From positions 1,140,001 to 1,172,000 of the forward strand of contig CP065016.1 in the NCBI GenBank assembly GCA_016700375.1: a stretch of DNA of 32,000 bases, written 5' to 3'. Below are positions 1,744 through 20,958 of the stretch, piece by piece; the stretch's first letter is position 1; each line of letters opens with the position of its first letter. The DNA comes from Candidatus Saccharimonadota bacterium. GTDB lineage: Bacteria; Patescibacteriota; Saccharimonadia; Saccharimonadales; UBA4665. The translations under genes were made by a program, and so were the position numbers. A model generated the notes under the pieces. The model was given only the letters and a program-made list of their open reading frames with translations, ran no database searches and had not been told where the DNA came from.

Positions 1744-2595
1744 CTAAATAACGAGGAGGATGACGCCAAAGGTGCACATGGCGGCAGCAGTGAGTTTGCG
1801 TGCAATGTTAGTGCGCTCGCTGCGCATAAAAGCAAAGGCCAGTAGGGCGGTGACGATTATTCCTGCTTGGCGAATAGGCGCTACGAGGCTAAAAGGACCG
1901 TATAGGTAGGCATAGTTCATAGCGGCATTGCCAAGTGCATATATCACTGCCAGGATGATCAGCAGACGAAGTACTTTACCGCGGATGAGGTTTTTACAGA
2001 GAGGTATTTTACTTGGTTGGACCATCAGTGAGCCGATGCCACCCAAAACAAACGAAAACCAAATCCATGTGATTGGCTCAACATTGCGAACGACATACGC
2101 AGAGCTGGCTATAGCTATGCCAAAAAGAAAACCGGTAATAAGCCCATATACAACGCCCTTACGCCTCCTGAATACTTGGCGGCTCTCGCTCAAAAGGACT
2201 ATGCTTCCAAAAACGAGTATGCCACCAGCGAGCTGTAGCCAACTGAGCCGTTCGTTGTACAGCCATATTCCAGCTAAGATTATCCATATGGCCTGCGTTG
2301 CAAACAACACCGAAAATACAGACGCATCTATATGTTTTAGCGTTTTTGCGTACACCACAGAACCAACCCCAAAACAAGCCGTGCAAAGCCCAACGGCAAA
2401 CCACTGAGAAGAGTACCCGGCAAACGATATGCCGTTAGCGAAAACCCATGGCAACATGACCGTCGCCACCGACAGCTGAAACATACCGGCAAACGCCACA
2501 TCATCTACCTTATAGCGGTGCAAAATAATTCTTTGGAGCAGTATTGAAACCGAAAGAAGTAGCACGGCAACAGCAATATACACCTGCCAGCTCAT
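1744..2595 (-). CDS. DMT-superfamily (EamA-like) transporter
   Basis: About 10 hydrophobic segments arranged as two EamA-like halves. I prefer the ATG at 2595, which forms an ATGA start/stop overlap with the upstream gene, over the ORF-track start at 2637. Confidence 0.8.
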   Translation of the reverse strand: MSWQVYIAVAVLLLSVSILLQRIILHRYKVDDVAFAGMFQLSVATVMLPWVFANGISFAGYSSQWFAVGLCTACFGVGSVVYAKTLKHIDASVFSVLFATQAIWIILAGIWLYNERLSWLQLAGGILVFGSIVLLSESRQVFRRRKGVVYGLITGFLFGIAIASSAYVVRNVEPITWIWFSFVLGGIGSLMVQPSKIPLCKNLIRGKVLRLLIILAVIYALGNAAMNYAYLYGPFSLVAPIRQAGIIVTALLAFAFMRSERTNIARKLTAAAMCTFGVILLVI

Positions 2596-4007
2596 GGGGT
2601 AATCCGGAGCTTCGCTGTTCGAAACAATGTTCGCCACAAACCGCGGTGCGTATCTAATTTGAAACGCTCACGTACGCGAACCTTTTCGTAAACCGTTGGC
2701 TGATATGACGTTTGATATGTACGACGTAGTTTTTGGTACTTATTCTTATGGTAGATATGCCAAAAGTCTTCCTCGGAATAGTATGTGTGGGCATAGAACC
2801 ACTTTTTCCCACCCAACTGGGTCAGTTTTTTTTCAATTGAGCGATTTGCCCGTAAAAACTGATTATAATCTGGTATAAACTCACCCCACACGCCGACATT
2901 TATAACGAGTGGAGTTGGTAAGTTACTCGAGATGAATGGCGATAGCTTGTCGGTTTTAAGTGGACAGAGCCATAGTGGATAGATGCCTAACGTATTGTCA
3001 ACGAAATTCATGAACTCTACAGCTTTTTCTACGGGCAGCGCCAGATCCTGTACGACATGATGCTGAGACATGCCACTTTCCTGGAGTGCTTCATATAGTT
3101 TGCGGGTGTGGAGCATCCAGTTAAGTAATCTGCGCCAAAATTTTGTAAAAGGAATGTCGAATACCTTAAAAGCATATTTACCGACCCAAAACGCACCTCG
3201 GTCGTAGCGGAACAAATAGTCGGTTAGTGGGATTATTTTGTTCCAGATGCCCCCATGGGATTCTTTTTCGGCGTCAAGGTAAAACCGTTCATCACGGGCG
3301 CGACTGAAGCGGGTGACTACGCCAGCTTTTTCATTTGTAAGCGAGCCAACCATAATGACGCCACGGTCGCGTGCGAACATAATCCCGTCTATGTAATCGG
3401 GTTTTTTGGCTGCTTCTTTTTGCATGAGTGACACTGCAGCGTCGAAGCTTTTGACGGGAAAATACGTAAGCCGTACATATTTTTTGGCAGGAATGAGGCG
3501 AAGCTCTATCGCCGTCATTACGCCAAGGGTGCCATAGGAGCCTGCTGTGCCATAAAATAAGTCAGCGTGTTTCTTTGGGCTGCAATTCGTAATCGTGCCG
3601 TCCCCGGTAATTATCTCGTATGATGTACAAGTGCTATGAAAGCAGCCATACCGGAAGGAGCTACTTTCGCCGGCTCCGCCCTGTACGCCGCCACCCACCG
3701 TAATGCCGGGGAATTCCATAACAACCGGTGGAATGAGACCGTGTTTTAGCGTGGCGCGGACGAGTTTGTCCATGGGGACGTTTGGCTCTACGAGGGCGGT
3801 TTTGGTCTTTGGGTCAATATGCAAGATGTGGTTAAGCCCACTGGCGTCGAGCATTTCGCTCCGTTTAAAAACTTGAATCCGGGTGGAATTTGTGCTGCCA
3901 TGGTAAATTTTAAAGGGTTTCTTTTGCTCGTAAAATCCTGCGACTTGTGCGGCTAGCGCCGCAACCCGTTCTTTGTGCGTTTGTTTCATCTGCGCAGATT
4001 GTATCAT
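2592..4007 (-). CDS. FAD-binding oxidoreductase of the DHCR24/DIMINUTO (delta-24-sterol-reductase-like) family
   Basis: 471 aa. It has a PCMH-type FAD domain (GITVGGGVQGGAGESSSFRYGCF, DLFYGTAGSYGTLGV). Long C-terminal matches, recalled from human DHCR24, include RLIPAKKYVRLTYFPV vs RIIPAKKYVKLRFEPV and QHHVVQDLALPVEK...IYPLWLCPL vs QHHVVQDMLVPMK...VYPIWLCPF. Confidence 0.8.
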   Translation of the reverse strand: MIQSAQMKQTHKERVAALAAQVAGFYEQKKPFKIYHGSTNSTRIQVFKRSEMLDASGLNHILHIDPKTKTALVEPNVPMDKLVRATLKHGLIPPVVMEFPGITVGGGVQGGAGESSSFRYGCFHSTCTSYEIITGDGTITNCSPKKHADLFYGTAGSYGTLGVMTAIELRLIPAKKYVRLTYFPVKSFDAAVSLMQKEAAKKPDYIDGIMFARDRGVIMVGSLTNEKAGVVTRFSRARDERFYLDAEKESHGGIWNKIIPLTDYLFRYDRGAFWVGKYAFKVFDIPFTKFWRRLLNWMLHTRKLYEALQESGMSQHHVVQDLALPVEKAVEFMNFVDNTLGIYPLWLCPLKTDKLSPFISSNLPTPLVINVGVWGEFIPDYNQFLRANRSIEKKLTQLGGKKWFYAHTYYSEEDFWHIYHKNKYQKLRRTYQTSYQPTVYEKVRVRERFKLDTHRGLWRTLFRTAKLRITP

Positions 4008-4822
4008 GTTTTTCGGCGGGTACGGAGGGCGTGGAGGAGGTCAATCATGATGAAGCTAATGAGCATCAGGAGTAGCCAGGCGCCTAGTTTGTGTATGCTC
4101 ACTAGGTGCCATTCAGTTGCCTGGTTTGGGTACAGCCAGCTTTTTGTGAAGGTGCCAATGTTTTCAGCCAGCCACACAAAAAAGGCCGACAAAAGAGCGG
4201 TGACCAAAAACGGCATGCGCCGTTCCGTAGTGTGTACGGTGTAGTAGGTCCAGGTGCGACCATATAGGACAAGGGTTGCACCAAAGAGCAACCAGCGGAT
4301 GTCATAGGTGTAGTGGTGCGAGAAAAAGTTCAAATAGATTGCGGCCGCAAGTAAAATGGTATACAGGCGCTTTGGGTAGGGGCGGAATTCAAGCGCAAGG
4401 ACTCGCCACGCACGAGCAATGAAGCTACCAACCGCAGCATACATAAAGCCCGAATACAGCGGTACTGTGGCTAGTTTAAAAACGGCATCTTCAGGGTACG
4501 ACCAAGACCCAATCCCTGGTGCCGTTTTGAATAGTTCCATACCGAGACCCACAAGGTGAAAAATGAGTATGGTTACAACTTCGTGTGGCTTTTCGAGCTT
4601 TGTTGCGACCAGTACCAGCTGAATGAAGACTGCAAAGAGAAATAGCCAATCGTAACGGGCAAGCAGGGGAAGCTCAACATACTTGGTGACGATAATAGTC
4701 CCGAGCATAAGCCCGCCAAATATCGCTGCCCAGCCAAGTTTGATAGTAAACGCAAAGAGCCATCCGCCTGGGAATTGTTCTACTCTCTGTAAAAAACGCC
4801 ATTTTTTACCTGGGTTTGTCAT
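4004..4822 (-). CDS. DUF817-family integral membrane protein
   Basis: Multi-TM protein with FHLVGLGMELFKT...GSWSYPE...VPLYSGFMYAAVGS...AENIGTF..WLYPNQ, as I recall for DUF817. The preferred start is ATG 4822 (MTNPGKK). The stop overlaps the next start as ATGA at 4004-4007. Confidence 0.75.
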   Translation of the reverse strand: MTNPGKKWRFLQRVEQFPGGWLFAFTIKLGWAAIFGGLMLGTIIVTKYVELPLLARYDWLFLFAVFIQLVLVATKLEKPHEVVTILIFHLVGLGMELFKTAPGIGSWSYPEDAVFKLATVPLYSGFMYAAVGSFIARAWRVLALEFRPYPKRLYTILLAAAIYLNFFSHHYTYDIRWLLFGATLVLYGRTWTYYTVHTTERRMPFLVTALLSAFFVWLAENIGTFTKSWLYPNQATEWHLVSIHKLGAWLLLMLISFIMIDLLHALRTRRKT

Positions 4823-4853
4823 GTGGCTATGATAGCATGCCGCAGGTAGGGGG

Positions 4854-5858
4854 TTAGGCGAGGAGGAGAGTGATGGTGAAGGTGGTGCCTTTGCCGCTTG
4901 CATTAGAGCGGGCGGCAATGTGGCCGTGGTGTGCGGATATGATTTGTTTGGCTATAGAAAGACCAAGGCCATGGCCAGCCACATTTTGACTGCTACGTGA
5001 TGTATCTGCCCGGTAGAAACGGTCAAAAATGTGGGGTAGGTCTTTTTCGGCAATACCGTGCCCGGTGTCGCTGATACTCAGTGTCGCCTGTTTGCCGCGT
5101 TTTTGAGCACTGAGGGTAATGGTCGATTTTGATGGGCTGTATTTCACGGCGTTGTCTAGCAAGATTACAAGTACGTCGGTAAGGCTTTCTGCGTTCGCAA
5201 CTACTGTGATATCTCGAACAGTATTTTCGATGGAGATTTTCTTTGCTTGCGCGAGCGGAATGGTGCGGTTGACGGCTTCTATGGCAGCCACTTCGAGTGA
5301 AGTGGGGGATAAGGATATATCGTGATTGTTCGCGAGCATCAGTAGTCGGTCAGTGAGCGTGCGCATGTGGTGAACTTCGTCGAGGCTGCTTGCAAGCAGG
5401 GCTGCGTGGCTGGCTTTGGTAGCAGTTTTATCACGCAAGCCAACCTCAATCTCCGACTGCATAATGGTGAGCGGGGTGCGCAGCTCGTGCGCGGCATCAC
5501 TACTGAACCGCGTTTGGCTTTCGAGCGCTTCTTCGACGGGTCGTAACGTACGTCGGGCAAGCAGGTAGCTCCCTATAGCTCCACCCGAAAGAACGACCAG
5601 ATTAAATAAGACTAATTGCCCAAGCAGGCGTGAGCGACTCTCGGCAACACGTTGTTCGCGCCACGTCCGAAAGCCATCGGCATCGTCGGCGAGGTTAATG
5701 AATATTTCACCTGCTCGAGGCGGGCGGTAGCTTCGCCCCAGCTCGTGCGTAGATATCTGGAAGACAATAAAACTAAACAGCAGGCTAATGAATAGTAAAA
5801 TCAGCGTGTACCACGCCGTGAGACGAAGGGTTGCAGAGTGAAACACTGGGTGTTTCAT
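4854..5858 (-). CDS. Sensor histidine kinase (two TM segments, HisKA + HATPase_c)
   Basis: H-box AAHELRTPLT, N-box LLDNAVKYSP, G1 DTGHGI and G2 GHGLGLSI. The start overlaps the regulator's stop as ATGA. Confidence 0.9.
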   Translation of the reverse strand: MKHPVFHSATLRLTAWYTLILLFISLLFSFIVFQISTHELGRSYRPPRAGEIFINLADDADGFRTWREQRVAESRSRLLGQLVLFNLVVLSGGAIGSYLLARRTLRPVEEALESQTRFSSDAAHELRTPLTIMQSEIEVGLRDKTATKASHAALLASSLDEVHHMRTLTDRLLMLANNHDISLSPTSLEVAAIEAVNRTIPLAQAKKISIENTVRDITVVANAESLTDVLVILLDNAVKYSPSKSTITLSAQKRGKQATLSISDTGHGIAEKDLPHIFDRFYRADTSRSSQNVAGHGLGLSIAKQIISAHHGHIAARSNASGKGTTFTITLLLA

Positions 5859-6535
5859 GCGACCTCGCTCAGTTTGTAGCCAAACCCGCGAACCGTGTGG
5901 ATAAGGGGTTTGGATTTGAACGGCTTATCAACTTTATTGCGCAGGTAACCTATGTAGGCTTCGACAGTGTTGGGCAAAATGTCTGCGTCAAAATCCCAGA
6001 CGTGATTGATGATGTTATCCTTACTCAAGACCCGTTCCTTGTTCCGCATAAGATATTCCAGTAGCGAATATTCGGTTTGCGAAAGGGCAATTGGCTTGCC
6101 TGCGCGGCGGACGTCATAACTCACGGTGTCGAGACTGAGATCACCGACCTGCAAATTTGTGCCACTTGTTTCGTGTGGGCGACGGGTAAGGGCGCGCAGG
6201 CGAGCTAGGAGCTCCTCAAATGAAAATGGCTTTACGAGGTAGTCGTCTGCACCGGCGTTGAGTCCAGCTACGCGGTCGCGGACCTGGCCTTTTGCGGTGA
6301 GCATAATGACGGGGGTTTTGACGCCCTTGCTGCGCAGTTTTTCGCATATTTCGAGCCCGTCCATACCGCCAGGGAGCATACGGTCAAGGATAATAACGTC
6401 GTAGTCGTCGCCAAGTGCGGCCGCCAAACCATCGGCACCGTCGTGACAGACCTCCACGGTTGAGTGTTCTTGCTCAAGCCCCAGTTTGATTGCGCGGGCG
6501 ATTTTGGGTTCGTCTTCTATAAGGAGTAGTTTCAT
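5855..6535 (-). CDS. OmpR/PhoB-family response regulator (receiver + winged-helix)
   Basis: Receiver signature MKLLLIEDEP...DVIILDRMLPGGMDG...LTAK. The C-terminal winged helix ends in TVRGFGYKL. Confidence 0.92.
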   Translation of the reverse strand: MKLLLIEDEPKIARAIKLGLEQEHSTVEVCHDGADGLAAALGDDYDVIILDRMLPGGMDGLEICEKLRSKGVKTPVIMLTAKGQVRDRVAGLNAGADDYLVKPFSFEELLARLRALTRRPHETSGTNLQVGDLSLDTVSYDVRRAGKPIALSQTEYSLLEYLMRNKERVLSKDNIINHVWDFDADILPNTVEAYIGYLRNKVDKPFKSKPLIHTVRGFGYKLSEVA

Positions 6536-6652
6536 ATGCTTTAGTCTGATACCTTTCCCTGAATTATACCTGAGAACACTCTGACTGGCATTGTGTAATG
6601 TGTGCGTTCTTATGAACGGAGCGAAAATATTCTCCTCAGCGCTGTTATCCCC

Positions 6653-7279: not shown

Positions 7280-7834
7280 TTACTGGTTGACTTTCGTGTT
7301 GGCATTTTGCGAAGAATCACCTCGTTTGTGGTCGCCACGTGGTCCACCGGGGCCTCCCGGGCCGCCGTGACCGCGCCCGCCGCCAAAGACGAGGTAGCGG
7401 TAGTCGGTCGATATGCCGTTGTCGCTAAACCACTTATCGAGAGCGGTGCGTTCAGCATCCATAGCTGCTTTTCGCTCGGCGTCGGTTTTGCTATCCATGC
7501 TGGCGCGGTTGGCCTCACGGGTTTTTTGCAGTTCGGCACGCTTGGCAGTGATGGCATCGGCTTGCGCTTGGGTAAGCTTGCCGTCTTTCACCAGAGTAGC
7601 GAGTTCAGTTTTCACTTCTGCTTCACGCTGGGCTTTCATTTCGGCGCGGTTGGCGTCAAACACTGACTGCACATCACTTTCTTTCAGGTTAAATTTCTTC
7701 GCAATGGCGCTGACGAGGCCCGACATAGGGTGGGAGCCATTGTTTTGCGTGGCGGCGCTTGCCATACCGAGTCCGGTGAGTCCGGTGACGGCCACCATAG
7801 CAGCGACGCCTGCGGTTACTAACGATTTCTTCAT
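7280..7834 (-). CDS. Secreted helical protein with an LTxxQ-like motif and a Gly/Pro-rich tail (hypothetical)
   Basis: Signal peptide MKKSLVTAGVAAMVAVTGLTGLGMASA. The body is rich in charged and Ala residues and contains GKLTQAQADAI. The C-terminus is GGGRGHGGPGGPGGPRG. AAGGAG lies 7 nt before the ATG at 7834, so I prefer that start to 7840. Confidence 0.7.
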   Translation of the reverse strand: MKKSLVTAGVAAMVAVTGLTGLGMASAATQNNGSHPMSGLVSAIAKKFNLKESDVQSVFDANRAEMKAQREAEVKTELATLVKDGKLTQAQADAITAKRAELQKTREANRASMDSKTDAERKAAMDAERTALDKWFSDNGISTDYRYLVFGGGRGHGGPGGPGGPRGDHKRGDSSQNANTKVNQ

Positions 7835-7969
7835 GGGCATTCTCCTTTACGGTTGATATGTGTTGCAACTGCCGTATGATACCCATGTTTCATGAGAGCT
7901 TCCTGAGACACTCACTGCTTGAGGTTATGGTTATGCAGTGCTACGATGAATGTAAGGAGATTCTTTGCG

Positions 7970-9394
7970 ATGGGCCAAGAAGACGCCAAAAACAAACACA
8001 TCGTTATCATTGGCGCCGGAACTACCGGCATAATGGTTGCAAATAAGCTGGTGAAGTCTGGCCACCATGTAACGGTTATTGACCCGGCTAAAACACATTA
8101 CTATCAGCCCGGCTTTCTGTTTGTCCCGTTTGGGCAGTACCAGTTGAACCAGCTGAGAAAGCCACTTGTTCGCCTGCTCCGAAAAAGGGTTAATCACCTT
8201 CGAGCCGTGGTGCAAAGCCTGCAGCCTGCCGAGAAAACACTGCAACTCGACTCGGGTGAGTGTGTTCGCTACGATGTTTTGGTTATAGCCACGGGTACAC
8301 AAACAGACCCAACCATGACGGAAGGGCTTGTGGGTGAGGGCTGGCGCAAAGACATTCACGATTACTACACTCCCGATGGTGCCGAGGCGCTACGCCAGGC
8401 TCTTCAGAAGTTTCAGGGTGGCAACCTGGTTGTGCAGATTATGGAAATGCCTATCAAATGCCCAGTCGCGCCCCTGGAGTTCACCTTCTTGGCAGATGAT
8501 TACTTCAAGCGCCGTAAGATGCGCGAGAAAGTAAAGTTAACATACGTAACGCCGCTTCCCGGGGCTTTCACCAAGCCAGTCGCCGCTGCCAAGCTTAGCC
8601 ACATGCTCTCAGACCGTAGCGTCGAAGTGGTAACAGATTTTCTTACCGAAAAGGTGGACCAAGCAGCCAAAAAAGTCGTGTGTTACGATGGCCGCGAAGT
8701 GCCGTATGACCTGCTTGTTTGCGTGCCTATGAACGTTGGTGCGAAGTTTTTGCAAGGCAATGAGCTCGTGAATGATGTGGAGTTTGTGGAAGTAAATCAC
8801 CACAGCCTACAGTCTACTAAGTACCCACATATTTTTGCTATAGGCGACGCCGCTGATGTACCAACAAGTAAGGCGGGGTCGGTCGGGCACTTCGAGGCTC
8901 ACACACTCCGGCGAAACATCGACCACTTTTTGGCTGGTCGCCCAGTGGAAGAAACATTTGATGGCCACAGTAATTGCTTTGTAGAATGTGGCGGTGGTAA
9001 GGCGCTGCTGCTTGATTTTAACTACGACACGCAGCCATACGAAGGTACCTTCCCGTTTGCAGGCATTGGCCCGATGAAGCTGCTTAACCCCAGCCGGTTG
9101 AACCACTGGGGGAAACTGGCTTTTCGCTGGATCTACTGGCACATGCTTTTGCCTGGCCGCAGGATTCCGTTTATCCCTGAACAAATGAGTTTGAAAGGGA
9201 AGAATATTCCAGCCGATACTAGAGTATCAGAGAGTTATGAGACAAGAGACATGAGTCAAGATGTACCGGCGCAATCCCAGGTGAAACCACCAGAGGAAAA
9301 TGAACCATCCCAGGTGGAACAACCACAAGTTTCTAGTGTGCCAAATGAACAACCAAATCAACTAAATCAACCGAAGGAGGGTGGTCGTGAATAA
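7970..9394 (+). CDS. Sulfide:quinone-oxidoreductase-like NAD(P)/FAD-dependent oxidoreductase with a Gln/Pro/Glu-rich C-terminal tail
   Basis: Rossmann motif HIVIIGAGTTG, Cys motifs PIKCPVAPLEF and HSNCFVECGGG, and FAIGDAADVPTSKAGS. AAGGAG lies 8 nt upstream of the ATG at 7970. The last ~60 aa are low-complexity. Confidence 0.8.
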   Translation: MGQEDAKNKHIVIIGAGTTGIMVANKLVKSGHHVTVIDPAKTHYYQPGFLFVPFGQYQLNQLRKPLVRLLRKRVNHLRAVVQSLQPAEKTLQLDSGECVRYDVLVIATGTQTDPTMTEGLVGEGWRKDIHDYYTPDGAEALRQALQKFQGGNLVVQIMEMPIKCPVAPLEFTFLADDYFKRRKMREKVKLTYVTPLPGAFTKPVAAAKLSHMLSDRSVEVVTDFLTEKVDQAAKKVVCYDGREVPYDLLVCVPMNVGAKFLQGNELVNDVEFVEVNHHSLQSTKYPHIFAIGDAADVPTSKAGSVGHFEAHTLRRNIDHFLAGRPVEETFDGHSNCFVECGGGKALLLDFNYDTQPYEGTFPFAGIGPMKLLNPSRLNHWGKLAFRWIYWHMLLPGRRIPFIPEQMSLKGKNIPADTRVSESYETRDMSQDVPAQSQVKPPEENEPSQVEQPQVSSVPNEQPNQLNQPKEGGRE

Positions 9395-9706: not shown

Positions 9707-10279
9707 ATGTCAGAACAACACCCGCACAAAACTGAACACACTGGCCACGAAATGTGTCATGTCTGCAACCAATGCAAAGACTGTCATGCCTGCCGCTGCG
9801 AAACGCAGCAGGGCCCAGCACTGAAAAAAATGATGATTATTGTGAGCAAGGCAGGTATAGACAGCGTGTACGCCGCGCTCATCCTGGCGAACGGCGCTCG
9901 CAGCGAAGGCATAGAGTGCGACATGTTCTTTACGTTCTTTGGCCTCGACGCCATCACCAAAAAACGCATGGAGCACTTAAAGGTTGCTATGAGTGGTAAC
10001 CCAGGTATGCATATGCCGGAAATTGCCGGGGTCGTACCTGGCATGGAGACCTTTGCAACACACATGATGCAAAAGCGCATGGCCGAGCTTGATATACCGG
10101 GCGTAAGCGAATTCCTCGACATTATCAAGGCGGCTGGCGGGCACGTGTATGCCTGCAAGCTTGCCATGGAAATGTTTAAACTAGAACAAAGCGACCTGTG
10201 GGATGACACGGACGGCGTGCTTACCGTCGGCCAGTTTTACGAACGCTATGTGCCAGGTAGCCAAATCATCTTTATCTAG
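9707..10279 (+). CDS. DsrE/DsrF-like (DrsE_2-type) protein with a Cys/His-rich N-terminal extension
   Basis: Core MMIIVSKAGIDSVYAALILANGA...CDMFFTFFGLD...YACKLAMEMF is typical of DsrE-family proteins. The N-terminal 36 aa are HPHKTEHTGHEMCHVCNQCKDCHACRC. AGGAGG lies 5 nt upstream. Confidence 0.8.
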   Translation: MSEQHPHKTEHTGHEMCHVCNQCKDCHACRCETQQGPALKKMMIIVSKAGIDSVYAALILANGARSEGIECDMFFTFFGLDAITKKRMEHLKVAMSGNPGMHMPEIAGVVPGMETFATHMMQKRMAELDIPGVSEFLDIIKAAGGHVYACKLAMEMFKLEQSDLWDDTDGVLTVGQFYERYVPGSQIIFI

Positions 10280-11984: not shown

Positions 11985-12746
11985 TTATGGACGGAGCGTG
12001 CCACCAAAGACCTGCCACGCCAAGAGCGATTTGGCCACAAGGCTCAAAATGATGTAGGCGCGTTCGCCGTAGAGGTAATCGCGCCATTTACCAACCTGCT
12101 TGTACTGCAGCACCATATTCAGCGCAAAGCAGCTGAAAAATACGAAAATAGAGACAGATATCCAGTACACAAACGTTGGGGCGGCACTCCCATTGGCTGC
12201 TCCGAGCCACATATAAAATGCCACGACTACCCAAGGGATGAGGCCAGCGAAGGTACCAAGGTTGAAGCTGAGCCAATTAGTCTTTTTGGTGGTTTGGTTG
12301 TGCACTTCCATGACGAGCCCGAGCAGGTTCATGACGGCGGTCAGGCTAAACATCATCAGCAGTGAACTGAAATCGTAGATACCCACTAACATGCCAATGG
12401 CGACCATCATGGTGCTGGCCGAAATGGCGTATTCGACCCAGCGTAGTTTGTTTATGCCGAGTTTGAGGTCGGCAGCATAGCGCCTGTTGTACACAGTGGC
12501 GATAGTAAAGTGGAAAAAGGCCGAGAGGAAAAAGAAGGCAGCAATCAGCCAGGGCAGGTCAACGTTAAAAAGCGTCGTTGTTGTCGGTTGGAGTGACTGG
12601 GTTGCTTTGTCGAACTCGAGGTAGTTACCGCTAACGGGCACAGGCAATGACTTGCTGAGTAAGAGGACCGCCACGGCTTGCGCCAGATGCAAGCAGCCGG
12701 CGATGATATTGAGTTTCTTGAGTGACCGCGCGGTTATTTTCTTCAT
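11985..12746 (-). CDS. Heliorhodopsin
   Basis: 253 aa, 7 TM. It has IAGCLHLAQ, FFHFTI, RWVEYAISAS (counterion Glu) and ERAYIILSLVAKSLLAWQVFGGTL (retinal Lys). It is collinear with heliorhodopsin 48C12 as I recall that sequence. Confidence 0.88.
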   Translation of the reverse strand: MKKITARSLKKLNIIAGCLHLAQAVAVLLLSKSLPVPVSGNYLEFDKATQSLQPTTTTLFNVDLPWLIAAFFFLSAFFHFTIATVYNRRYAADLKLGINKLRWVEYAISASTMMVAIGMLVGIYDFSSLLMMFSLTAVMNLLGLVMEVHNQTTKKTNWLSFNLGTFAGLIPWVVVAFYMWLGAANGSAAPTFVYWISVSIFVFFSCFALNMVLQYKQVGKWRDYLYGERAYIILSLVAKSLLAWQVFGGTLRP

Positions 12747-16327: not shown

Positions 16328-16414
16328 CGTGAAAGCTCCGACCTTTCACGCTTATGCTTGCATGACTGTATCTGTTTGGCTTATATTCATGCGTGAAAGG
16401 TCGGAGCTTTCACG
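16328..16414. repeat. REP pair (two 23-bp hairpin repeats in opposite orientation) upstream of the RAYT gene
   Basis: cgtgaaagctccgacctttcacg (16328-16350) and its reverse complement cgtgaaaggtcggagctttcacg (16392-16414). Confidence 0.85.
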
Positions 16415-16416
16415 CT

Positions 16417-17055
16417 ATGGCAAGTCGAAATACGGTTCGGGAATTTACAGAAAACGCCTACTACCATGTGTACAACAGGGGTGTTGAGAAGCGGGTAATT
16501 TTCCTTGACGAGCAAGACTACACCGTGTTTCTTGGCCTCCTCAAAAAATATCTGGTAGGCGAAAACTACAATAAAGCAAATCGGCACAAAGCCGTGACCA
16601 TTGGCTCTGAAGTTCAGTTGCTGGCATATTGCTTGATGCCAAATCATTTTCACCTGTTGTTATATCAGGTTAGCCAGGAGGGTGTCGCGAAGCTCATGCG
16701 TCGGGTGACAACTGGCTACGTTATGTATTTCAATAGTCGTTATGCTCGCGTAGGCGGCCTGTTTCAGGGGCGATACAAAGCATCACACATCAATGCAGGC
16801 GCATACCTGCACCATATATCCCGTTATATCCACCTCAATCCGGAGCAGCACCAGACGTGGCCTTATTCGAGCCTCAAGTACTATCAGCGTACACAAGCAC
16901 CACCAGAGTGGCTTCATACCGAAAAGATCATTGACTTATTCCATTCGCGTCGCGAATACCTGGATTTTGTAGACGAGTACCAAGACTCAATGCGAGAACT
17001 TTCTTTGCTCAAATGGCAGCTGGCCAATAACCCAGATGATCCTGACACCCCATGA
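16417..17055 (+). CDS. REP-associated tyrosine transposase (RAYT, IS200/Y1-transposase-like)
   Basis: HUH motif LMPNHFHLLL, a downstream Tyr region (ISRYIHLNP), and flanking by REP pairs. I prefer ATG 16417 because the ORF-track GTG start lies inside a REP. Confidence 0.85.
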   Translation: MASRNTVREFTENAYYHVYNRGVEKRVIFLDEQDYTVFLGLLKKYLVGENYNKANRHKAVTIGSEVQLLAYCLMPNHFHLLLYQVSQEGVAKLMRRVTTGYVMYFNSRYARVGGLFQGRYKASHINAGAYLHHISRYIHLNPEQHQTWPYSSLKYYQRTQAPPEWLHTEKIIDLFHSRREYLDFVDEYQDSMRELSLLKWQLANNPDDPDTP

Positions 17056-17072
17056 AACTACCTCGGTAGCGC

Positions 17073-17138
17073 CGTGAAAGCTCCGACCTTTCACGCTCGA
17101 ACCGCGAACCATAACCGTGAAAGGTCGGAGCTTTCACG
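17073..17138. repeat. REP pair downstream of the RAYT gene
   Basis: The same 23-mer occurs at 17073-17095 (forward) and 17116-17138 (reverse complement). Confidence 0.85.
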
Positions 17139-17157
17139 GTTATTGGAGAGGTGGAGG

Positions 17158-17529
17158 TTAGGCGGCGAGTTCGGTTTTTACCATTTCGGCAACCTGTCGG
17201 GGGGTCATTTCTGCCTTGACAATGTAGCGACGGATGCCGAGTTCCTTTAGGTCTGGGGGTGCTTGCTCCTCACCTGAGTTTGTGAGGATGACAACCTTAA
17301 TGTCTTTACCCCAACTGGTTTTGCGGAGTTTTTTGAGCATTTCGCCGCCGTTCATTTCCGGCATCATGAGGTCTAAGAGGATGATGTTCGGTTTCATCGA
17401 TTCAGCCAGCTCCAGCCCAAGTTTGCCATTGGCAGCAGTCTCTACTATAAAGCCCTCTGCCTCAAACTTTATGCGGTACATGGTACTTATGGCTTGATCG
17501 TCTTCTACAATAGCTACTTTTTTGCTCAT
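17158..17529 (-). CDS. Receiver-only (CheY-like) response regulator
   Basis: 123 aa. VAIVEDD...IILLDLMMPEMNG...LTNS...KA, with no output domain. TATAAT lies 7 nt before the ATG. Confidence 0.9.
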   Translation of the reverse strand: MSKKVAIVEDDQAISTMYRIKFEAEGFIVETAANGKLGLELAESMKPNIILLDLMMPEMNGGEMLKKLRKTSWGKDIKVVILTNSGEEQAPPDLKELGIRRYIVKAEMTPRQVAEMVKTELAA

Positions 17530-17570
17530 ACTTTGTATTATACAATACGGCCAAAATTATTGCCGAACGA

Positions 17571-18737
17571 CCTGACCCACACTCACTTTTTTCCTCCTCC
17601 CCGTACATGAGCCACCGGTATCGGTGGTAGCAGCGGCGTACGTAGTAGCCGTTGCATATACTCCCAGGCTTGCTTGAACCAGCTCAGTCGTTTCTTGGGA
17701 TGAATCTTCTGCTGTTGTTTTGGTAGTACTTTGACCGCATAGCGCCACAGTAACCACCAACCGAGGAAGACAAACAGCAGCAAGTTACGGATGACTTGTG
17801 GTTTTCTGACTCGTTGCCACTCCAATCGTTGCAACCACTTCACATCCTTGAAGGCTTCTTCAATTTCGAACCTTTCTGCGTAACGGTTCAGGACTTGTCT
17901 TCTGGTGAGGGCCTCTGTTCCCTCGCTCGGTAGGTTGGTCAACAAAAACCAGGGCTCCGGATCCTTCATGTTCGGATTGTAATCCGAACGAATAAGTCGG
18001 AGCTTATGTGTATGGTACGTGATGGGTAATTCCTCATGACTAATGTCATGGATGGGTTCCTTCCACCAGCTGGGATCCCAGGGAAGCTGAACGAGCTTGT
18101 CGCTCTTGGTACGAGCGATGAAGTGCACATCGTACAGGGCAAACAAAGTGAACAGTTTGTCACTAGCAAACCAGCGATCCATGACAAGTACCAGTTGCAG
18201 ATCTGGTGCATTAACTTGAAGGAAATGGAACAGTCCCTCCAGCGCCACTAGAAGTGGCGCAATGAGAGCTGCTTCGCTGAGGTTCACCTGACACCAAATG
18301 GGTATAGCTCGACCCTTGCGATGCGACACCGCCAAGATGGCGATACAAAACGGGCCGAATTGAGAGTGGTCCAGAGAGCAGTACCACCGACCAGTATGCG
18401 AAGCTAACGCTTCGCTAACCAACAATCGCTGCAAGCGCACTGGCAGTTCCTCGTCAGTAACTAACCGACGAATGCGGTTTTCTCCAGTCCAGCGATTCAG
18501 CCCAAGCGTTCGACCAGCAGCGTTGAGCGAACAGAACTCCTGAAGGGAAAACTGTTCAACTCCGAGGAAGAAGCGACGAGCCTTAGCTTTTGGGATGTAT
18601 GTCGCACGCAGCCGCTTTACAGCAGTTGCCATCTTTTGTAGTGTAGTCATTAGAAAACGACCTTTCTGTTTTAGCTTTTGTAACCAAAACTGTAGGGTCG
18701 TTTTTGTTATGTGTCAAAAAAGTGAGTGTGGGTCAGG
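17571..18737 (-). mobile_element. Intact IS4-family insertion sequence (1167 bp)
   Basis: 22-bp terminal inverted repeats: CCTGACCCACACTCACTTTTTT at 17571-17592 and its complement at 18716-18737. Flanked by direct CCGAACGA (17563-17570 and 18738-18745). Single DDE ORF. Confidence 0.85.
17583..18650 (-). CDS. IS4-family DDE transposase
   Basis: 355 aa. YAERFEIEEAFKDVK fits the IS4 Y-(2)-R-(3)-E-(6)-K signature exactly. Upstream Asp candidates are LDHS and VMDRWF. Confidence 0.88.
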   Translation of the reverse strand: MTTLQKMATAVKRLRATYIPKAKARRFFLGVEQFSLQEFCSLNAAGRTLGLNRWTGENRIRRLVTDEELPVRLQRLLVSEALASHTGRWYCSLDHSQFGPFCIAILAVSHRKGRAIPIWCQVNLSEAALIAPLLVALEGLFHFLQVNAPDLQLVLVMDRWFASDKLFTLFALYDVHFIARTKSDKLVQLPWDPSWWKEPIHDISHEELPITYHTHKLRLIRSDYNPNMKDPEPWFLLTNLPSEGTEALTRRQVLNRYAERFEIEEAFKDVKWLQRLEWQRVRKPQVIRNLLLFVFLGWWLLWRYAVKVLPKQQQKIHPKKRLSWFKQAWEYMQRLLRTPLLPPIPVAHVRGGGKK

Positions 18738-18745
18738 CCGAACGA

Positions 18746-18895
18746 CCTGACCCACACTCACTTTTTGAATGTCATCCTGAGCGAAGCCGAAAGATCCCGT
18801 CTGATGTACGCCTAACGAGATCCCTCCACGGAGTTTACCCCGTACTTGATACGGGGGTCGGGATGACACAGGAGTAAAAAGTGAGTGTGGGTCAG
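18746..18895. mobile_element. 150-bp MITE sharing the IS4-element termini
   Basis: Starts with cctgacccacactcactttttg and ends with aaaaagtgagtgtgggtcag. The interior is a TGTCATCCTGAGCGAAG...GGGATGACA palindrome (18770-18868). It is followed by a third CCGAACGA (18896-18903). Confidence 0.7.
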
Positions 18896-18926
18896 CCGAA
18901 CGACAACCTTCGTTATTGCTATTACC

Positions 18927-19313
18927 CTAAGTGTGCTTTGGGAGGCGCAGAACTTCTCGGACAACGTCCACTACCTGTGAAGGTGTATAGTGAGCTTTTA
19001 CGATGTAGCGATCGACGTGTAAAAAGCGCAGAGAAGAGGGTGCTTCGTCCCGACTCAAGTTCGTCAGGATGATCACTCGCATGGAGGCTCCCCAATCTTG
19101 AGCGCGTACCTTCGCCAGCAGCTCCTCGCCCTGCATGCCGGGCATACGGAGATCTAGCAAAACTACATCTGGCTGTTCATTTTTGAGCAACCTGTACCCA
19201 GCCGCTCCATCGCCAGCGGTCAAAACAGTAAAACCCTCAAGCCGAAATTTTGTCTCGTACAGTCGCCGAATCGCAACCTCGTCCTCAACAACCGCAATCT
19301 TTACAGATGCCAT
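18927..19313 (-). CDS. Receiver-only (CheY-like) response regulator
   Basis: MASVKIAVVEDE...VVLLDLRMPGMQG...LTNL...KA; a paralog of 17158-17529. I prefer the ATG at 19313. Confidence 0.88.
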   Translation of the reverse strand: MASVKIAVVEDEVAIRRLYETKFRLEGFTVLTAGDGAAGYRLLKNEQPDVVLLDLRMPGMQGEELLAKVRAQDWGASMRVIILTNLSRDEAPSSLRFLHVDRYIVKAHYTPSQVVDVVREVLRLPKHT

Positions 19314-19346
19314 ATGATGTAATACTAACATAACTCTTACCCGGCA

Positions 19347-19375
19347 TTGATTTTATGAGGGATTTTTGCTAGTAT
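19347..19375 (+). promoter_or_regulatory. Sigma-70-like promoter (TTGATT-17-TAGTAT) with no ORF downstream
   Basis: Hexamers at 19347-19352 and 19370-19375 with a 17-nt spacer. The next feature downstream is the hairpin terminator at 19405-19447. Confidence 0.3.
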
Positions 19376-19404
19376 CGTAGAGAAAGTACATTTTGAAATA
19401 AGCG

Positions 19405-19447
19405 CAACGTAAACTCGACCAGGTCGAATGTTTACGTTGTGTTTTTA
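19405..19447 (+). terminator. Rho-independent terminator-like hairpin in a divergent intergenic region
   Basis: CAACGTAAAC...GTTTACGTTG forms a 10-bp stem with an inner tcgacc/ggtcga stem, followed by TGTTTTTATTT. Confidence 0.55.
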
Positions 19448-19471
19448 TTTGGAAATTTAAATAATACATTA

Positions 19472-19500
19472 TTGACCTATTACATAATAAATGATATTAT
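19472..19500 (+). promoter_or_regulatory. Sigma-70-like promoter (TTGACC-17-TATTAT) for the 19510 gene
   Basis: The -10 hexamer ends 9 nt before the ATG and there is no Shine-Dalgarno sequence, implying a leaderless or near-leaderless mRNA. Confidence 0.5.
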
Positions 19501-19509
19501 TACACGAGT

Positions 19510-20877
19510 ATGATACAAACTTTTGAATCAGGTACCACAAATATGCCTTCTATTTGCCCGGAAGGGCACGTACCTAGTTATTTGCCTAGATACCCAGGGG
19601 GTGAACACCTTAAAAAAATGGAAAAAGCCGGCTCATTGCTCATTAGCCAGGGTCGTGCTACCGATGAAGATGTTGCAAGATCGCTGGCTTTTACCGAGCG
19701 TGCGCATGATGTTTATGCTGGCCGGGAAGAGCCTGATAGTGCCGGAAGCTTTGTATTCGCCGTGCCCACTCGGGTTACGCGCGGAAATGGACATCTATAC
19801 CCAAGCGAGATAACACCGTTTTTGCCCATGGTGAAGCAATGTAGCGGGCGGGAGATGCTGTATCTTCTTGACGATATGCCGCCAAGCGTAATCGAGTCAT
19901 ATGCACCAGACGGCACTGGTAGGCAGGGACACGTTCTTTTCGTGCCACTATTTGGTGATATTGTTGGTGATATGCAGCGAATCCCCAGAAAATTCCTCGG
20001 GAATCGAGGAGTGGAAGTAGGCAATAAGGTTGCAGGGCTGATTGCTCTTACTGTCATCAACCAAGCCGCCTCTTTCGCAAAAAAAAGACTCGGTGCTGAG
20101 GTAATGGGGCTTGGGGCTGTACTTCCAGCTTTAACTGACTATGGCAGAAGGATACGCGTAAATGGGCTTACGACTACAACAGGTCACGGCGGGACAGTCG
20201 CTCTGATAGGAGGCACCGTTGACAAAGTAATAGAGGATACCGGCCTATCAAAAGATAAGATAGGCGTAATTGGCAGCGCAGGCTCGATTGGAAGGTCAAG
20301 TCTGGCGCTATTGCTCCAGAAATACCCGTCAACGAAATTTATTGTTCACGATGTGAGGACAATGGAGCGTGTGATGAATTCTCTGAGTCCCACTGACAAG
20401 GCAAGAGTATACGTAGCGGGTGCAATCGATGGCGTCTTTAGTGAATCTAATGTGGTCGTGTCTGCAATAACAAGTACAGTTAATTTTGCTCGAGATTTTC
20501 CTGCAATTGATTTATCGAAGAAAGTAATCATTGACGACAGTCAGCCAGGGGCATTTGACAGAGACGAAGTTGAGTCGCGTGGAGGAAAAGTGGTGTGGGT
20601 GGTAGGGGACGACACTAGCACCGATAGAACGACGACGCGGCTTGGAGGCTATCTTTTCGGTGATCATACTGGTCTTATGACTGATTCAAATGTTTGGGGA
20701 TGTGAAGCTGAAGCGGCAGCCATAGCGAGGACTGGACGATATGACCTAGCCTTACGATCGGCAGTCACACCCCAGGCGGCACAGAAAATTGGTGAGCTAC
20801 TAAAGGGTGCTGGCATAAGGGTCGCTCCCTTCCAAAGTTTTGGAAAACCAGTTGACTTGCCGGTTATCACACGATAG
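19510..20877 (+). CDS. NAD(P)-binding dehydrogenase, acyl-ACP-reductase / shikimate-DH-like fold; function unknown
   Basis: 455 aa. GLGAVLPALTDYG...TTTGHGGT...IGVIGSAGSIGRS resembles the architecture of cyanobacterial acyl-ACP reductase (ALGGFTSI...TTGNTHT...VGATGDIGSA). I do not recognise the N-terminal ~150 aa. Confidence 0.5.
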   Translation: MIQTFESGTTNMPSICPEGHVPSYLPRYPGGEHLKKMEKAGSLLISQGRATDEDVARSLAFTERAHDVYAGREEPDSAGSFVFAVPTRVTRGNGHLYPSEITPFLPMVKQCSGREMLYLLDDMPPSVIESYAPDGTGRQGHVLFVPLFGDIVGDMQRIPRKFLGNRGVEVGNKVAGLIALTVINQAASFAKKRLGAEVMGLGAVLPALTDYGRRIRVNGLTTTTGHGGTVALIGGTVDKVIEDTGLSKDKIGVIGSAGSIGRSSLALLLQKYPSTKFIVHDVRTMERVMNSLSPTDKARVYVAGAIDGVFSESNVVVSAITSTVNFARDFPAIDLSKKVIIDDSQPGAFDRDEVESRGGKVVWVVGDDTSTDRTTTRLGGYLFGDHTGLMTDSNVWGCEAEAAAIARTGRYDLALRSAVTPQAAQKIGELLKGAGIRVAPFQSFGKPVDLPVITR

Positions 20878-20958
20878 CCATTGAACATAAAAGCTGCGCG
20901 TCAGATATAATCATTCTTTTTGTGGTACACTAGTTGTGATGTTCTTTGCGTAACAATA

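What the first reader, a model, noticed from the sequence alone, without database searches (positions are those of the whole stretch)
2592..4007. Eukaryote-type DHCR24/DIMINUTO-family flavoprotein in a bacterial operon
Similarity to delta-24-sterol reductase is not limited to the generic FAD-binding PCMH domain. It runs into the C-terminal substrate half: RLIPAKKYVRLTYFPV, QHHVVQDLALPVEK, IYPLWLCPL and EEDFWHIY all have close counterparts in human DHCR24 as I remember it. The eukaryotic N-terminal membrane anchor is missing. Bacterial members are rare; Coxiella's eukaryote-like sterol reductase is the known precedent. In an organism likely dependent on scavenged lipids, this enzyme could saturate an isoprenoid or sterol-like side chain taken from a host.
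Basis: partly seen in the sequence, partly recalled or inferred. Interest (0 to 1): 0.65.

Follow-up and report, generated by a model that had tools for sequence, protein, structure and literature searches.

The report
DHCR24-like flavoprotein of candidate-phyla bacteria
A tiny symbiotic bacterium (Saccharibacteria) encodes a genuine full-length relative of the eukaryotic cholesterol-pathway enzyme DHCR24, but it belongs to a large uncharacterised, mostly prokaryotic sister branch of that family that probably saturates a non-sterol isoprenoid lipid.

Summary
ORF 2592-4007(-) encodes a 471-aa flavoprotein that aligns to human DHCR24 (sequence verified) at 31% identity over 461 aa (E=1e-66). All four quoted C-terminal motifs align, and the N-terminal membrane anchor is absent.

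Such proteins are not rare in bacteria, and this one is not "eukaryote-type". It sits in a Saccharimonadales clade inside a large family (663 clusters at 50% identity with E<=1e-30). That family is common across CPR bacteria and also occurs in DPANN archaea, some Myxococcota, Bradymonadaceae and Verrucomicrobia, and Pezizomycotina fungi. Members are 37-71% identical to the window protein; canonical DHCR24/DWF1 is about 30% identical and forms its own clade (bootstrap 100).

Function is inferred, not shown. It is probably an FAD-dependent C=C reductase acting on an isoprenoid lipid, and sterol is unlikely here. A few relatives lie in isoprenoid operons (UppS, prenyl synthase, mevalonate genes, P450), but most have uninformative neighbours. 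In this lineage the gene is translationally coupled within a cluster of response regulator, histidine kinase, DUF817, flavoprotein and EamA genes. I rate it an uncharacterised variant of a known family, of moderate interest.

The parts
2592..4007 (-). DHCR24-like two-domain FAD flavoprotein, 471 aa including stop codon; no transmembrane helix
   Evidence: ORF; BLASTP to human DHCR24 E=1e-66; AlphaFold2 model pLDDT 88, pTM 0.88; two-domain VAO/PCMH fold, best solved matches DprE1, CKX and GalLDH.
3393..4007 (-). N-terminal PCMH-type FAD-binding half (aa 1-205). Pfam PF01565 core is aa 16-143 (nt 3579-3962). The glycine-rich flavin loop ITVGGGVQGGAGESSSFRYG is aa 102-121 (nt 3645-3704).
   Evidence: Pfam E=1.6e-18; PDB sequence matches to CKX and DprE1 are confined to this half; invariant G105, G106, G110, E114, S115, S117 and G121 across the family and in human.
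2667..3392 (-). C-terminal substrate (cap) half, aa 206-447. It carries the DHCR24-type motifs QHHVVQDLALPVEK (nt 3024-3065), IYPLWLCPL (nt 2958-2984) and EEDFWHIY (nt 2751-2774), plus the subfamily signature YLFRYDRGAFW (aa 264-274, nt 3186-3218).
   Evidence: Alignment to human DHCR24. The subfamily signature replaces the canonical YYHRHTRSIFW. No Pfam model exists for this half, even for human DHCR24.
2595..2666 (-). Basic C-terminal tail RFKLDTHRGLWRTLFRTAKLRITP (aa 448-471), absent from DHCR24/DWF1; candidate peripheral membrane-binding element (inferred)
   Evidence: Alignment A1. The last 30 aa carry net charge +8. Prokaryotic family members average +5.7 against +1 in canonical enzymes.
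4004..4918 (-). DUF817 polytopic membrane protein. The true start is probably the ATG at 4822. Its stop codon overlaps the flavoprotein start by 4 nt.
   Evidence: Pfam PF05675 E=6e-93; junction analysis. It is present next to the flavoprotein only in WIN, L018 and (displaced) L014. No solved relative.
1744..2637 (-). EamA/DMT-family transporter. The likely start is the ATG at 2595, which overlaps the flavoprotein stop by 4 nt.
   Evidence: Pfam PF00892 E=1.7e-20. There is a weak, sub-threshold NCBIfam hit to ArnE, E=6e-4. Start inferred from homologue L010. Adjacent to the flavoprotein in WIN, L018, L009 and L010.
4854..5858 (-). Membrane histidine kinase (HisKA + HATPase_c) of the upstream two-component system
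   Evidence: Pfam. 4-nt overlap with the RR gene. The RR-HK pair lies directly upstream of the flavoprotein gene (or of DUF817 where that gene intervenes) in WIN, L018, L009, L010, L001-3 and L014, with two more intervening genes in L075.
5855..6535 (-). OmpR/PhoB-type response regulator, first gene of the cluster
   Evidence: Pfam Response_reg + Trans_reg_C.
6563..6591 (-). Best sigma-70-like promoter match in the region (10 of 12), just upstream of the RR gene. This is a consensus match only.

Best explanation
The ORF encodes a cytoplasmic FAD enzyme with no transmembrane helix. I infer that it attaches peripherally to the membrane. It is a full-length homologue of delta24-sterol reductase (DHCR24/DWF1) but belongs to a separate, uncharacterised and mostly prokaryotic branch of that family.

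Shown:
- The two-domain VAO/PCMH fold.
- Conservation of most family-invariant residues in both domains.
- Absence of the N-terminal anchor and presence of a basic C-terminal tail.
- Membership of a Saccharimonadales clade within a family that is widespread in CPR bacteria and also present in DPANN archaea, a few other bacteria and Pezizomycotina fungi.
- Translational coupling in this lineage with an OmpR-type two-component system, a DUF817 membrane protein and an EamA transporter.

Inferred:
- Like DHCR24, it uses flavin reduced by NAD(P)H to saturate a C=C bond in a hydrophobic isoprenoid chain, of the same type as the trisubstituted isopropylidene double bond at sterol C24=C25.
- The organism and most of the family's hosts have no known sterol source, and the only informative gene neighbourhoods of relatives are isoprenoid operons. 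So the substrate is more likely a non-sterol isoprenoid lipid, either scavenged or self-made (polyprenyl phosphate carrier, or another prenyl lipid), than a sterol.
- In this lineage the enzyme may serve as an envelope-lipid remodelling step under two-component control.
For: - Homology and motifs.
- Fold.
- Conservation: of 39 columns conserved in at least 93% of 187 family sequences, 33 carry the same residue in human DHCR24. These include the equivalents of human R103, E191 and Y471.
- Separate branch: none of the 150 best representatives exceeds about 32% identity to human DHCR24, while they are 31-55% identical to the query. In the NJ tree the canonical clade has bootstrap 100, the Saccharimonadales clade 80, the fungal clade 82, and the two as sisters 78. 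Median identity to the query is 49% for Saccharibacteria, 48% for other CPR, 43% for fungi, 42% for DPANN and 30% for canonical enzymes.
- Distribution. Archaeal marker genes sit next to the Woesearchaeota copies.
- Isoprenoid context in relatives: L055 and L091 have flavoprotein-UppS-trans-prenyl synthase. L048 has UppS-flavoprotein-NUDIX, followed by HMG-CoA reductase, HMGS-like, thiolase and DUF35 genes. L079 (Myxococcota) has a P450 coupled to the flavoprotein by a 4-nt overlap, with a polyprenyl synthetase nearby.
- Closest solved folds include enzymes acting on prenylated substrates, DprE1 and cytokinin oxidase.
- Operon structure in the window.
Against: - No biochemical data exist for any member of this branch that I could find, and the literature tools failed throughout the session.
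- Gene context is uninformative in most loci. No Pfam family occurs in more than 6 of 150 immediate neighbours.
- UppS is directly adjacent in only 3 of about 155 loci (2 independent lineages), against about 0.3 expected by chance, and I singled it out after seeing it.
- The substrate-half signature differs from the canonical one (FRYDR against HRHTR), so the chemistry or substrate could have diverged further than assumed.
- A close relative has a truncated copy (L014) and others carry fragments of a second copy (L001-3), so the gene is dispensable in some lineages.
- Sewage and sludge do contain sterols, so a sterol substrate is not excluded for this particular organism.
Confidence: 0.55

Rival explanations
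1. It is a true delta24-sterol reductase, as JGI and UniRef automatic names say and. It would saturate C24=C25 of sterols scavenged from eukaryotes or from sewage, as I recall was reported for Coxiella burnetii CBU1206.
For: Full-length homology to DHCR24 with most invariant residues retained. JGI names many relatives 'delta24-sterol reductase'. The MAG's isolate name (MAG_MBR_AS.65) hints at a bioreactor or activated-sludge origin, where sterols would be available; the link from that name to a sterol-rich habitat is my assumption.
Against: - The protein lies outside the canonical clade.
- It has an altered substrate-half motif and no ER-type anchor.
- The family is widespread in many CPR lineages and in DPANN archaea.
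- Its nearest eukaryotic relatives are Pezizomycotina fungi. From background knowledge, these make ergosterol via the unrelated ERG4 reductase and have no known delta24(25) reduction step.
- Known hosts of Saccharibacteria are Actinobacteria, which lack sterols (background knowledge).
- Isoprenoid contexts in CPR relatives involve UppS and the mevalonate pathway, not sterol genes.
Confidence: 0.12
2. It is a flavoprotein oxidase or dehydrogenase whose chemistry has diverged from DHCR24, for example oxidising a lipid-linked sugar or alcohol as DprE1 does. In that case only the fold and the cofactor are shared.
For: The best solved structural matches are oxidases and dehydrogenases: DprE1, cytokinin oxidase and galactonolactone dehydrogenase. 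The subfamily-specific motif change lies in the cap domain.
Against: Sequence similarity to DHCR24 (31% over the full length, E=1e-66) is far stronger than to any oxidase (16-20% structural-alignment identity, with sequence hits only in the FAD domain). The DHCR24-specific C-terminal motifs are conserved across the whole family. The score against the DprE1 equivalog model is 58 bits against a cutoff of 500.
Confidence: 0.18
3. The gene is a recent horizontal acquisition from a eukaryote, that is, a 'eukaryote-like' effector-type gene as proposed for intracellular pathogens.
For: Canonical characterised members are eukaryotic. There is a eukaryotic (fungal) clade at 40-48% identity in the trimmed alignment.
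Against: - GC content at the gene (about 0.48) is like the rest of the window.
- Orthologues occur throughout Saccharimonadales and many other CPR lineages, with a tree structure compatible with long vertical residence.
- The fungal clade branches beside the Saccharimonadales clade and not the reverse, and the fungal genes are intronless or nearly so.
Confidence: 0.05

Closest known systems
DHCR24 (human seladin-1) / plant DWF1-DIMINUTO, delta24-sterol reductase, EC 1.3.1.72
   Same: The architecture is the same over the full length: a PCMH FAD domain plus a family-specific C-terminal half. Identity is 30-31%, E=1e-66. The shared motifs are IPAKKYV, QHHVVQD, YP(L/I)WLCP and (E/D)FW. Equivalents of human R103, E191 and Y471 are conserved.
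   Different: There is no N-terminal membrane anchor, and there is a basic C-terminal tail instead. The cap-domain motif is YLFRYDRGAFW instead of YYHRHTRSIFW. The phylogenetic clade is separate (bootstrap 100 for the canonical pair). The host has no known sterol metabolism.
Coxiella burnetii CBU1206 'eukaryote-like' delta24-sterol reductase (recalled from Gilk et al. 2010, J Bacteriol; I could not open the paper)
   Same: It is a bacterial protein of the DHCR24 family in an organism that obtains lipids from a host.
   Different: CBU1206 is described as closest to eukaryotic enzymes and as complementing a yeast erg4 mutant (from memory). The window protein instead belongs to a broad CPR/DPANN branch.
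DprE1, decaprenylphosphoryl-beta-D-ribose 2'-oxidase
   Same: It is the best solved structural match (TM 0.6-0.73). It shares the two-domain VAO fold, non-covalent FAD, a polyprenyl-linked lipid substrate and peripheral membrane association.
   Different: Identity is only 16-20%. The NCBIfam equivalog score is 58 bits against a cutoff of 500. It is an oxidase, not a reductase, and its cap domain is not alignable by sequence.
Uncharacterised Pezizomycotina 'Delta(24)-sterol reductase' (UniRef automatic name), e.g. Exophiala dermatitidis H6C4U0, Aplosporella, Trichoderma, Colletotrichum
   Same: Identity to the window protein is 40-48% in the trimmed alignment and up to 52% over HMMER-matched stretches. 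There is no N-terminal anchor. In the NJ tree this clade is sister to the Saccharimonadales clade (bootstrap 78).
   Different: These proteins are eukaryotic, 500-650 aa long with insertions, and some have hydrophobic C-terminal tails. Their function is also unknown, and they are not in biosynthetic clusters.

Membership tests
VAO/PCMH flavoprotein superfamily | PCMH-type FAD-binding domain (Pfam PF01565) | tested here: met
   E=1.6e-18, 67 bits against a cutoff of 26.4, residues 16-143.
VAO/PCMH flavoprotein superfamily | Two-domain fold (FAD domain plus cap/substrate domain) | tested here: met
   AF2 model pLDDT 88. Foldseek full-length matches to DprE1, CKX and GalLDH, E about 1e-19, TM 0.6-0.73.
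DHCR24/DWF1 family (broad sense) | Homology through the family-specific C-terminal half, not only the FAD domain | tested here: met
   BLASTP covers query 11-443 and human 67-510, E=1e-66. It is 31% identical to verified Arabidopsis DWF1. Motifs are aligned.
DHCR24/DWF1 family (broad sense) | Conservation of family-invariant residues | tested here: met
   33 of the 39 columns conserved in at least 93% of sequences are identical in human. Equivalents of R103, E191 and Y471 are conserved; N294 and K306 are not. That these residues are desmosterolosis sites is from my memory.
Canonical DHCR24/DWF1 (EC 1.3.1.72 orthologues) | Placement inside the clade of characterised enzymes | tested here: not met
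   Human plus DWF1 form a separate clade (bootstrap 100). The query lies in the Saccharimonadales clade. More than 150 representative clusters are closer to the query than human is. Caveats: NJ method, only two canonical sequences, midpoint root.
Canonical DHCR24/DWF1 (EC 1.3.1.72 orthologues) | N-terminal transmembrane anchor | tested here: not met
   The alignment starts at human residue 67. Maximum KD19 is 1.23. N-terminal hydrophobic segments occur only in human and DWF1.
Canonical DHCR24/DWF1 (EC 1.3.1.72 orthologues) | Cap-domain motif YYHRHTR(S/C)(I/L)(F/Y)W shared by human and plant enzymes | tested here: inconclusive
   It is replaced by YLFRYDRGAFW in at least 85% of the non-canonical family. 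It is not established that this motif defines substrate or chemistry.
Canonical DHCR24/DWF1 (EC 1.3.1.72 orthologues) | NADPH-dependent reduction of sterol C24=C25 | not testable with these tools
   This requires an enzyme assay or complementation.
Coxiella-type 'eukaryote-like' bacterial sterol reductases | Clustering with CBU1206 and amoebal/eukaryotic enzymes | not tested
   No CBU1206 sequence was available.
DprE1 | NCBIfam equivalog NF053785 at or above 500 bits | tested here: not met
   58.5 bits, FAD domain only.

The most novel reading that the evidence does not exclude
This branch of the DHCR24 family could be a previously unrecognised isoprene-unit reductase for polyprenyl-phosphate carrier lipids, for example saturating the omega-terminal isopropylidene unit, which is chemically equivalent to sterol C24=C25. 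It would be shared by CPR bacteria, DPANN archaea and filamentous ascomycetes, and exchanged between a Saccharibacteria-like lineage and the Pezizomycotina ancestor by inter-domain gene transfer. It could then be the missing enzyme behind omega-saturated polyprenols and dolichols. I recall, without having been able to verify it, that these include the hexahydropolyprenols of Aspergillus, alpha/omega-saturated archaeal dolichols and partly saturated mycobacterial heptaprenyl phosphate. In this lineage it would be a regulated step in tailoring scavenged or self-made carrier lipid. Support is thin: UppS and prenyl-synthase operons in two CPR lineages, the phyletic pattern, and the sister relationship with intron-poor fungal genes.
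Probability: 0.15. Interest if true: 0.75.

Novelty: new variant of a known kind. Interest (0 to 1): 0.45.

Why it matters
CPR bacteria and DPANN archaea are thought to build their envelopes largely from scavenged lipids, and very few lipid-modifying enzymes are known in them. A conserved DHCR24-like reductase found across many of these lineages, and shared with filamentous fungi, points to an undescribed isoprenoid-lipid saturation step. It also gives a concrete, expressible soluble enzyme with which to test that idea.

The result also has an annotation consequence. Thousands of database entries labelled 'delta24-sterol reductase', in CPR bacteria and in Pezizomycotina, are probably mis-named by similarity transfer. 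The apparent prokaryote-fungus sister relationship is a candidate case of inter-domain gene transfer.

Tried and rejected
- **Literature.** Every paper search and paper reading timed out. Statements about Coxiella CBU1206, desmosterolosis residues, ERG4, Saccharibacteria hosts and saturated polyprenols therefore rest on memory and are marked as such.
- **Domain libraries.** Pfam and NCBIfam cannot discriminate the family. There is no model for the DHCR24 C-terminal half, even for human DHCR24.
- **Fusion partners.** Long family members (700-1441 aa) show no recognisable extra domains. Proteins of about 900 aa are tandem duplications of the same module.
- **Family-wide neighbour enrichment.** Positions ±1 and ±2 in about 76 loci show no conserved partner. 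DUF817 and EamA linkage is restricted to the window's own sub-lineage.
- **Fungal gene contexts.** Neighbours are housekeeping genes, with no biosynthetic cluster.
- **Metagenome scans.** A scan with a single Levybacteria protein found nothing. The repeat with an alignment added 80 loci, of which only one (L091) repeated the UppS operon.
- **Solved structures.** There are no solved relatives for DUF817 or EamA.
- **Rejected readings.** A recent eukaryote-to-bacterium transfer was rejected. Identity with DprE1, GlcD or ADPS was rejected because those hits cover the FAD domain only.
Full report
**1. The observation**

Window 2592..4007(-) is an intact 471-aa ORF. Pfam recognises only the generic FAD_binding_4 domain at residues 16-143. 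No NCBIfam model comes near its cutoff; the best is DprE1 at 58 bits against a cutoff of 500. PDB sequence matches (cytokinin oxidase, DprE1, GlcD-like enzymes, ADPS) cover only the FAD domain.

I wrote human DHCR24 from memory, and an exact look-up confirmed it as NP_055577.1 / DHC24_HUMAN. BLASTP of the window protein against it gives 31% identity over 461 columns and E=1e-66, spanning query residues 11-443 and human residues 67-510. The human N-terminal membrane segment has no counterpart.

**2. Whose gene it is**

The window is 99% identical to contig JBGAWL010000001.1 of 'Candidatus Saccharimonadales bacterium MAG_MBR_AS.65'. GC content at the gene is unremarkable.

**3. Size and spread of the family**

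- A word-indexed search returned 3773 clusters at 90% identity. The top 120 are all proteins of about 466 aa and 52-98% identical, largely from Saccharibacteria, and JGI often names them 'delta24-sterol reductase'.
- An exhaustive HMMER pass over 1.84 billion representatives at 50% identity found 663 clusters at E<=1e-30.
- Two peptide patterns alone matched 238 species-representative prokaryotic genomes. These include many CPR lineages (Saccharibacteria, Paceibacterota, and Doudna-, Magasanik-, Davies-, Kaiser-, Lipton-, Levy-, Nomura-, Berkel- and Kerfeld-bacteria), Woesearchaeota, and scattered Myxococcota, Bradymonadaceae, Verrucomicrobia, Solirubrobacteraceae and Spirochaetaceae.
- Archaeal hallmark genes (TFB, CTP-dependent riboflavin kinase, class-I LysRS) lie beside the Woesearchaeota copies. 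One representative is from a Nanohaloarchaeon.
- Every named member of a large group of representatives 500-650 aa long is a Pezizomycotina fungus: Aplosporella, Periconia, Lineolata, Trichoderma, Elsinoe, Exophiala and Colletotrichum. A dedicated search added Capronia, Fonsecaea, Cladophialophora, Zasmidium, Dothistroma, Glarea, Calycina, Orbilia and Trapelia. None is characterised.

'Bacterial members are rare' is therefore wrong.

**4. Relationship to canonical DHCR24**

None of the 150 best representatives exceeds about 32% identity to human DHCR24.

I built a neighbour-joining tree of 187 sequences over 459 trimmed columns. It included verified human DHCR24 and verified Arabidopsis DWF1. 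Human and DWF1 fall in a separate deep clade, the query falls in a Saccharimonadales clade, and the fungal clade is its sister. Bootstrap values (100 replicates, 72 taxa) were:

| Clade | Bootstrap |
|---|---|
| Canonical human + DWF1 | 100 |
| Saccharimonadales clade | 80 |
| Fungal clade | 82 |
| Saccharimonadales + fungal as sisters | 78 |
| Deeper nodes | below 40 |

Median identity of the query in the trimmed alignment was:

| Group | Median identity |
|---|---|
| Saccharibacteria | 49% |
| Other CPR | 48% |
| Named fungi | 43% |
| DPANN | 42% |
| Other bacteria | 40% |
| Canonical DHCR24/DWF1 | 30% |

Caveats: the method is NJ only, there are only two canonical sequences, the root is a midpoint root, and sampling is biased towards sequences similar to the query. 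The sister relationship therefore holds only among the sequences sampled.

**5. What is conserved and what differs**

- Of the 39 columns conserved in at least 93% of the family, 33 carry the same residue in human DHCR24. These include the equivalents of R103, E191 and Y471, which I recall as desmosterolosis sites.
- The branch has its own cap-domain signature, Y-L-F-R-Y-D-R-G-A-F-W, against the canonical Y-Y-H-R-H-T-R-S-I-F-W. It also has K402 where canonical enzymes have Q.
- N-terminal hydrophobic anchors occur only in the canonical enzymes. Prokaryotic members end in a strongly basic tail, with mean net charge +5.7 over the last 30 residues and +8 in the window protein. Some fungal members end in a hydrophobic, tail-anchor-like segment.
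- AlphaFold2 gives a confident two-domain model (pLDDT 88, pTM 0.88), with lower confidence around residues 261-300.
- No DHCR24 structure exists in the PDB copy. The best full-length matches are DprE1 (TM 0.6-0.73), cytokinin oxidase and galactonolactone dehydrogenase.

**6. Genomic context in the window**

On the minus strand the order is response regulator (5855-6535), histidine kinase (4854-5858), DUF817 (4004 to about 4822), flavoprotein (2592-4007) and EamA transporter (1744-2595).

The RR/HK, DUF817/flavoprotein and flavoprotein/EamA junctions each overlap by 4 nt. The best promoter-like site lies upstream of the RR gene.

The RR-HK-flavoprotein core recurs in relatives down to about 54% identity (L018, L009, L010, L001-3, L014, and more loosely L075). 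DUF817 is present only in WIN, L018 and L014, and EamA only in WIN, L018, L009 and L010. More distant Saccharibacteria have unrelated neighbours. The cluster is therefore probably an operon, but it is specific to this lineage.

**7. Context elsewhere**

Pfam scans of the ±1 and ±2 neighbours in about 76 loci found no family in more than 6 of 150 proteins. There are informative exceptions:

- L055 (Levybacteria) has flavoprotein, then UppS, then a trans-polyprenyl synthase. This order is repeated in the metagenomic relative L091, which is 66% identical.
- L048 (Paceibacterota) has UppS, the flavoprotein (overlapping) and NUDIX. HMG-CoA reductase, HMGS-like, thiolase and DUF35 genes follow 1.7 kb downstream.
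- L079 (Myxococcota) has a cytochrome P450 overlapping the flavoprotein start by 4 nt, and a polyprenyl synthetase 3 kb away.

UppS is thus directly adjacent in 3 of about 276 immediate-neighbour slots, representing two independent lineages, against roughly 0.3 expected by chance. I selected it after seeing it, so this is suggestive and not compelling. Fungal members sit among housekeeping genes and are intronless or nearly so.

**8. Most likely mechanism**

- **Shown:** the protein is a DHCR24-family two-domain flavoprotein with no transmembrane anchor and a basic tail, it is under strong conservation, and in this lineage it is co-transcribed with envelope-type genes.
- **Inferred from family chemistry:** reduced FAD, regenerated by NAD(P)H, transfers a hydride to a C=C bond of a hydrophobic isoprenoid chain.
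- **Inferred from distribution and the few informative operons:** the substrate is a non-sterol isoprenoid lipid. The distribution covers CPR, DPANN, predatory bacteria and ergosterol-making fungi. The operons involve UppS, prenyl synthase, the mevalonate pathway and a P450.

A polyprenyl-phosphate carrier lipid is the most economical candidate common to all these hosts, but that remains a hypothesis (novel case, p about 0.15). The rivals are true sterol reductase (0.12), diverged oxidase chemistry (0.18) and recent eukaryotic origin (0.05).

**9. Novelty and verdict**

The similarity to DHCR24 is already captured by automatic annotation (JGI and UniRef names), so the homology itself is not new. 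Three things appear to be unappreciated:

- These proteins form a distinct, very large and uncharacterised branch of the family.
- That branch is characteristic of CPR and DPANN symbionts and is shared with Pezizomycotina.
- The 'delta24-sterol reductase' label is probably wrong for it.

I could not check the literature, because every call to the literature tools failed. I rate this a new variant of a known kind, with moderate interest (0.45).

Noticed in passing
window 11985-12746 (-): An intact heliorhodopsin (Pfam PF18761, E=3e-96; E=8e-77 to the solved heliorhodopsin 6is6), with the lysine in the SLVAKS motif conserved, sits in a Saccharibacteria genome about 8 kb from the flavoprotein. 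An ORF of the same size is syntenic in relatives L009 and L014. No retinal or carotenoid synthesis gene is visible in the window, so the chromophore (itself derived from an isoprenoid) would have to be acquired.
   Followed up: partly
window 7919-9394 (+) and 9707-10279 (+): A sulfide:quinone/FCSD-like pyridine-nucleotide-disulfide oxidoreductase (491 aa) lies next to a DsrE-like protein. This is an unexpected sulfur-handling pair for a reduced CPR genome.
   Followed up: no
window 16393-25443: A mobile-element-rich stretch contains an IS200-like Y1 transposase, a DDE transposase and an rve integrase. These are interleaved with two orphan receiver-domain proteins (17158-17529, 18927-19331) and a 7TM-HisKA sensor kinase (20920-23127).
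   Followed up: no
window 27295-29409 (+) and 29633-31480 (+): Two large DUF11/PKD-repeat proteins, probably surface proteins. PKD proteins also flank the flavoprotein cluster in relatives L001-L003.
   Followed up: no
P0152, P0154, P0170, P0171, P0196; L080 1709-3109 and 3719-5015 region; L053 and L060 (both OY969576.1); L027 and L069: Some metagenomic proteins of about 900 aa are head-to-tail fusions of two DHCR24-like modules. Bradymonadaceae carry two adjacent copies, and some CPR genomes carry two dispersed copies. This hints at paralogues with different specificities, or at a dimeric enzyme.
   Followed up: partly
L014 6007-7098 (CP064992.1); L001 8561-9859, L002, L003: There is gene decay in close relatives. 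A complete Saccharibacteria genome has a copy truncated to about 363 aa (78% identical). The 69%-identical relatives carry fragments of a second copy just downstream of the intact one.
   Followed up: partly
P0150, P0155, P0161, P0165, P0177, P0204, P0346-P0463; L088, L089, L090: A Pezizomycotina-wide family, auto-named 'Delta(24)-sterol reductase' and uncharacterised, branches as sister to the Saccharimonadales clade (bootstrap 78). Its genes are intronless or nearly so. This is a candidate inter-domain gene transfer, and a probable systematic mis-annotation in fungi that use ERG4.
   Followed up: partly
L079 3023-5907 (Myxococcota MAG JBCBRU010000128.1): A cytochrome P450 is translationally coupled (4-nt overlap) to a DHCR24-like gene, followed by an ECF sigma factor, with a polyprenyl synthetase 3 kb downstream. 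This looks like a terpenoid or sterol tailoring operon.
   Followed up: partly
L048 9091-12726 (Paceibacterota MAG JANWIQ010000057.1): An archaeal-type upper mevalonate module (HMG-CoA reductase, HMGS-like, thiolase, DUF35/OB-fold) lies in a CPR bacterium, next to the UppS-flavoprotein-NUDIX genes.
   Followed up: no
window 7280-7840 (-): A 186-aa protein has a hydrophobic N-terminal stretch resembling a signal peptide and a Gly/Pro-rich C-terminus, with no Pfam match. It is conserved at the same position in relatives L014 and L018 (neighbour cluster c19).
   Followed up: no
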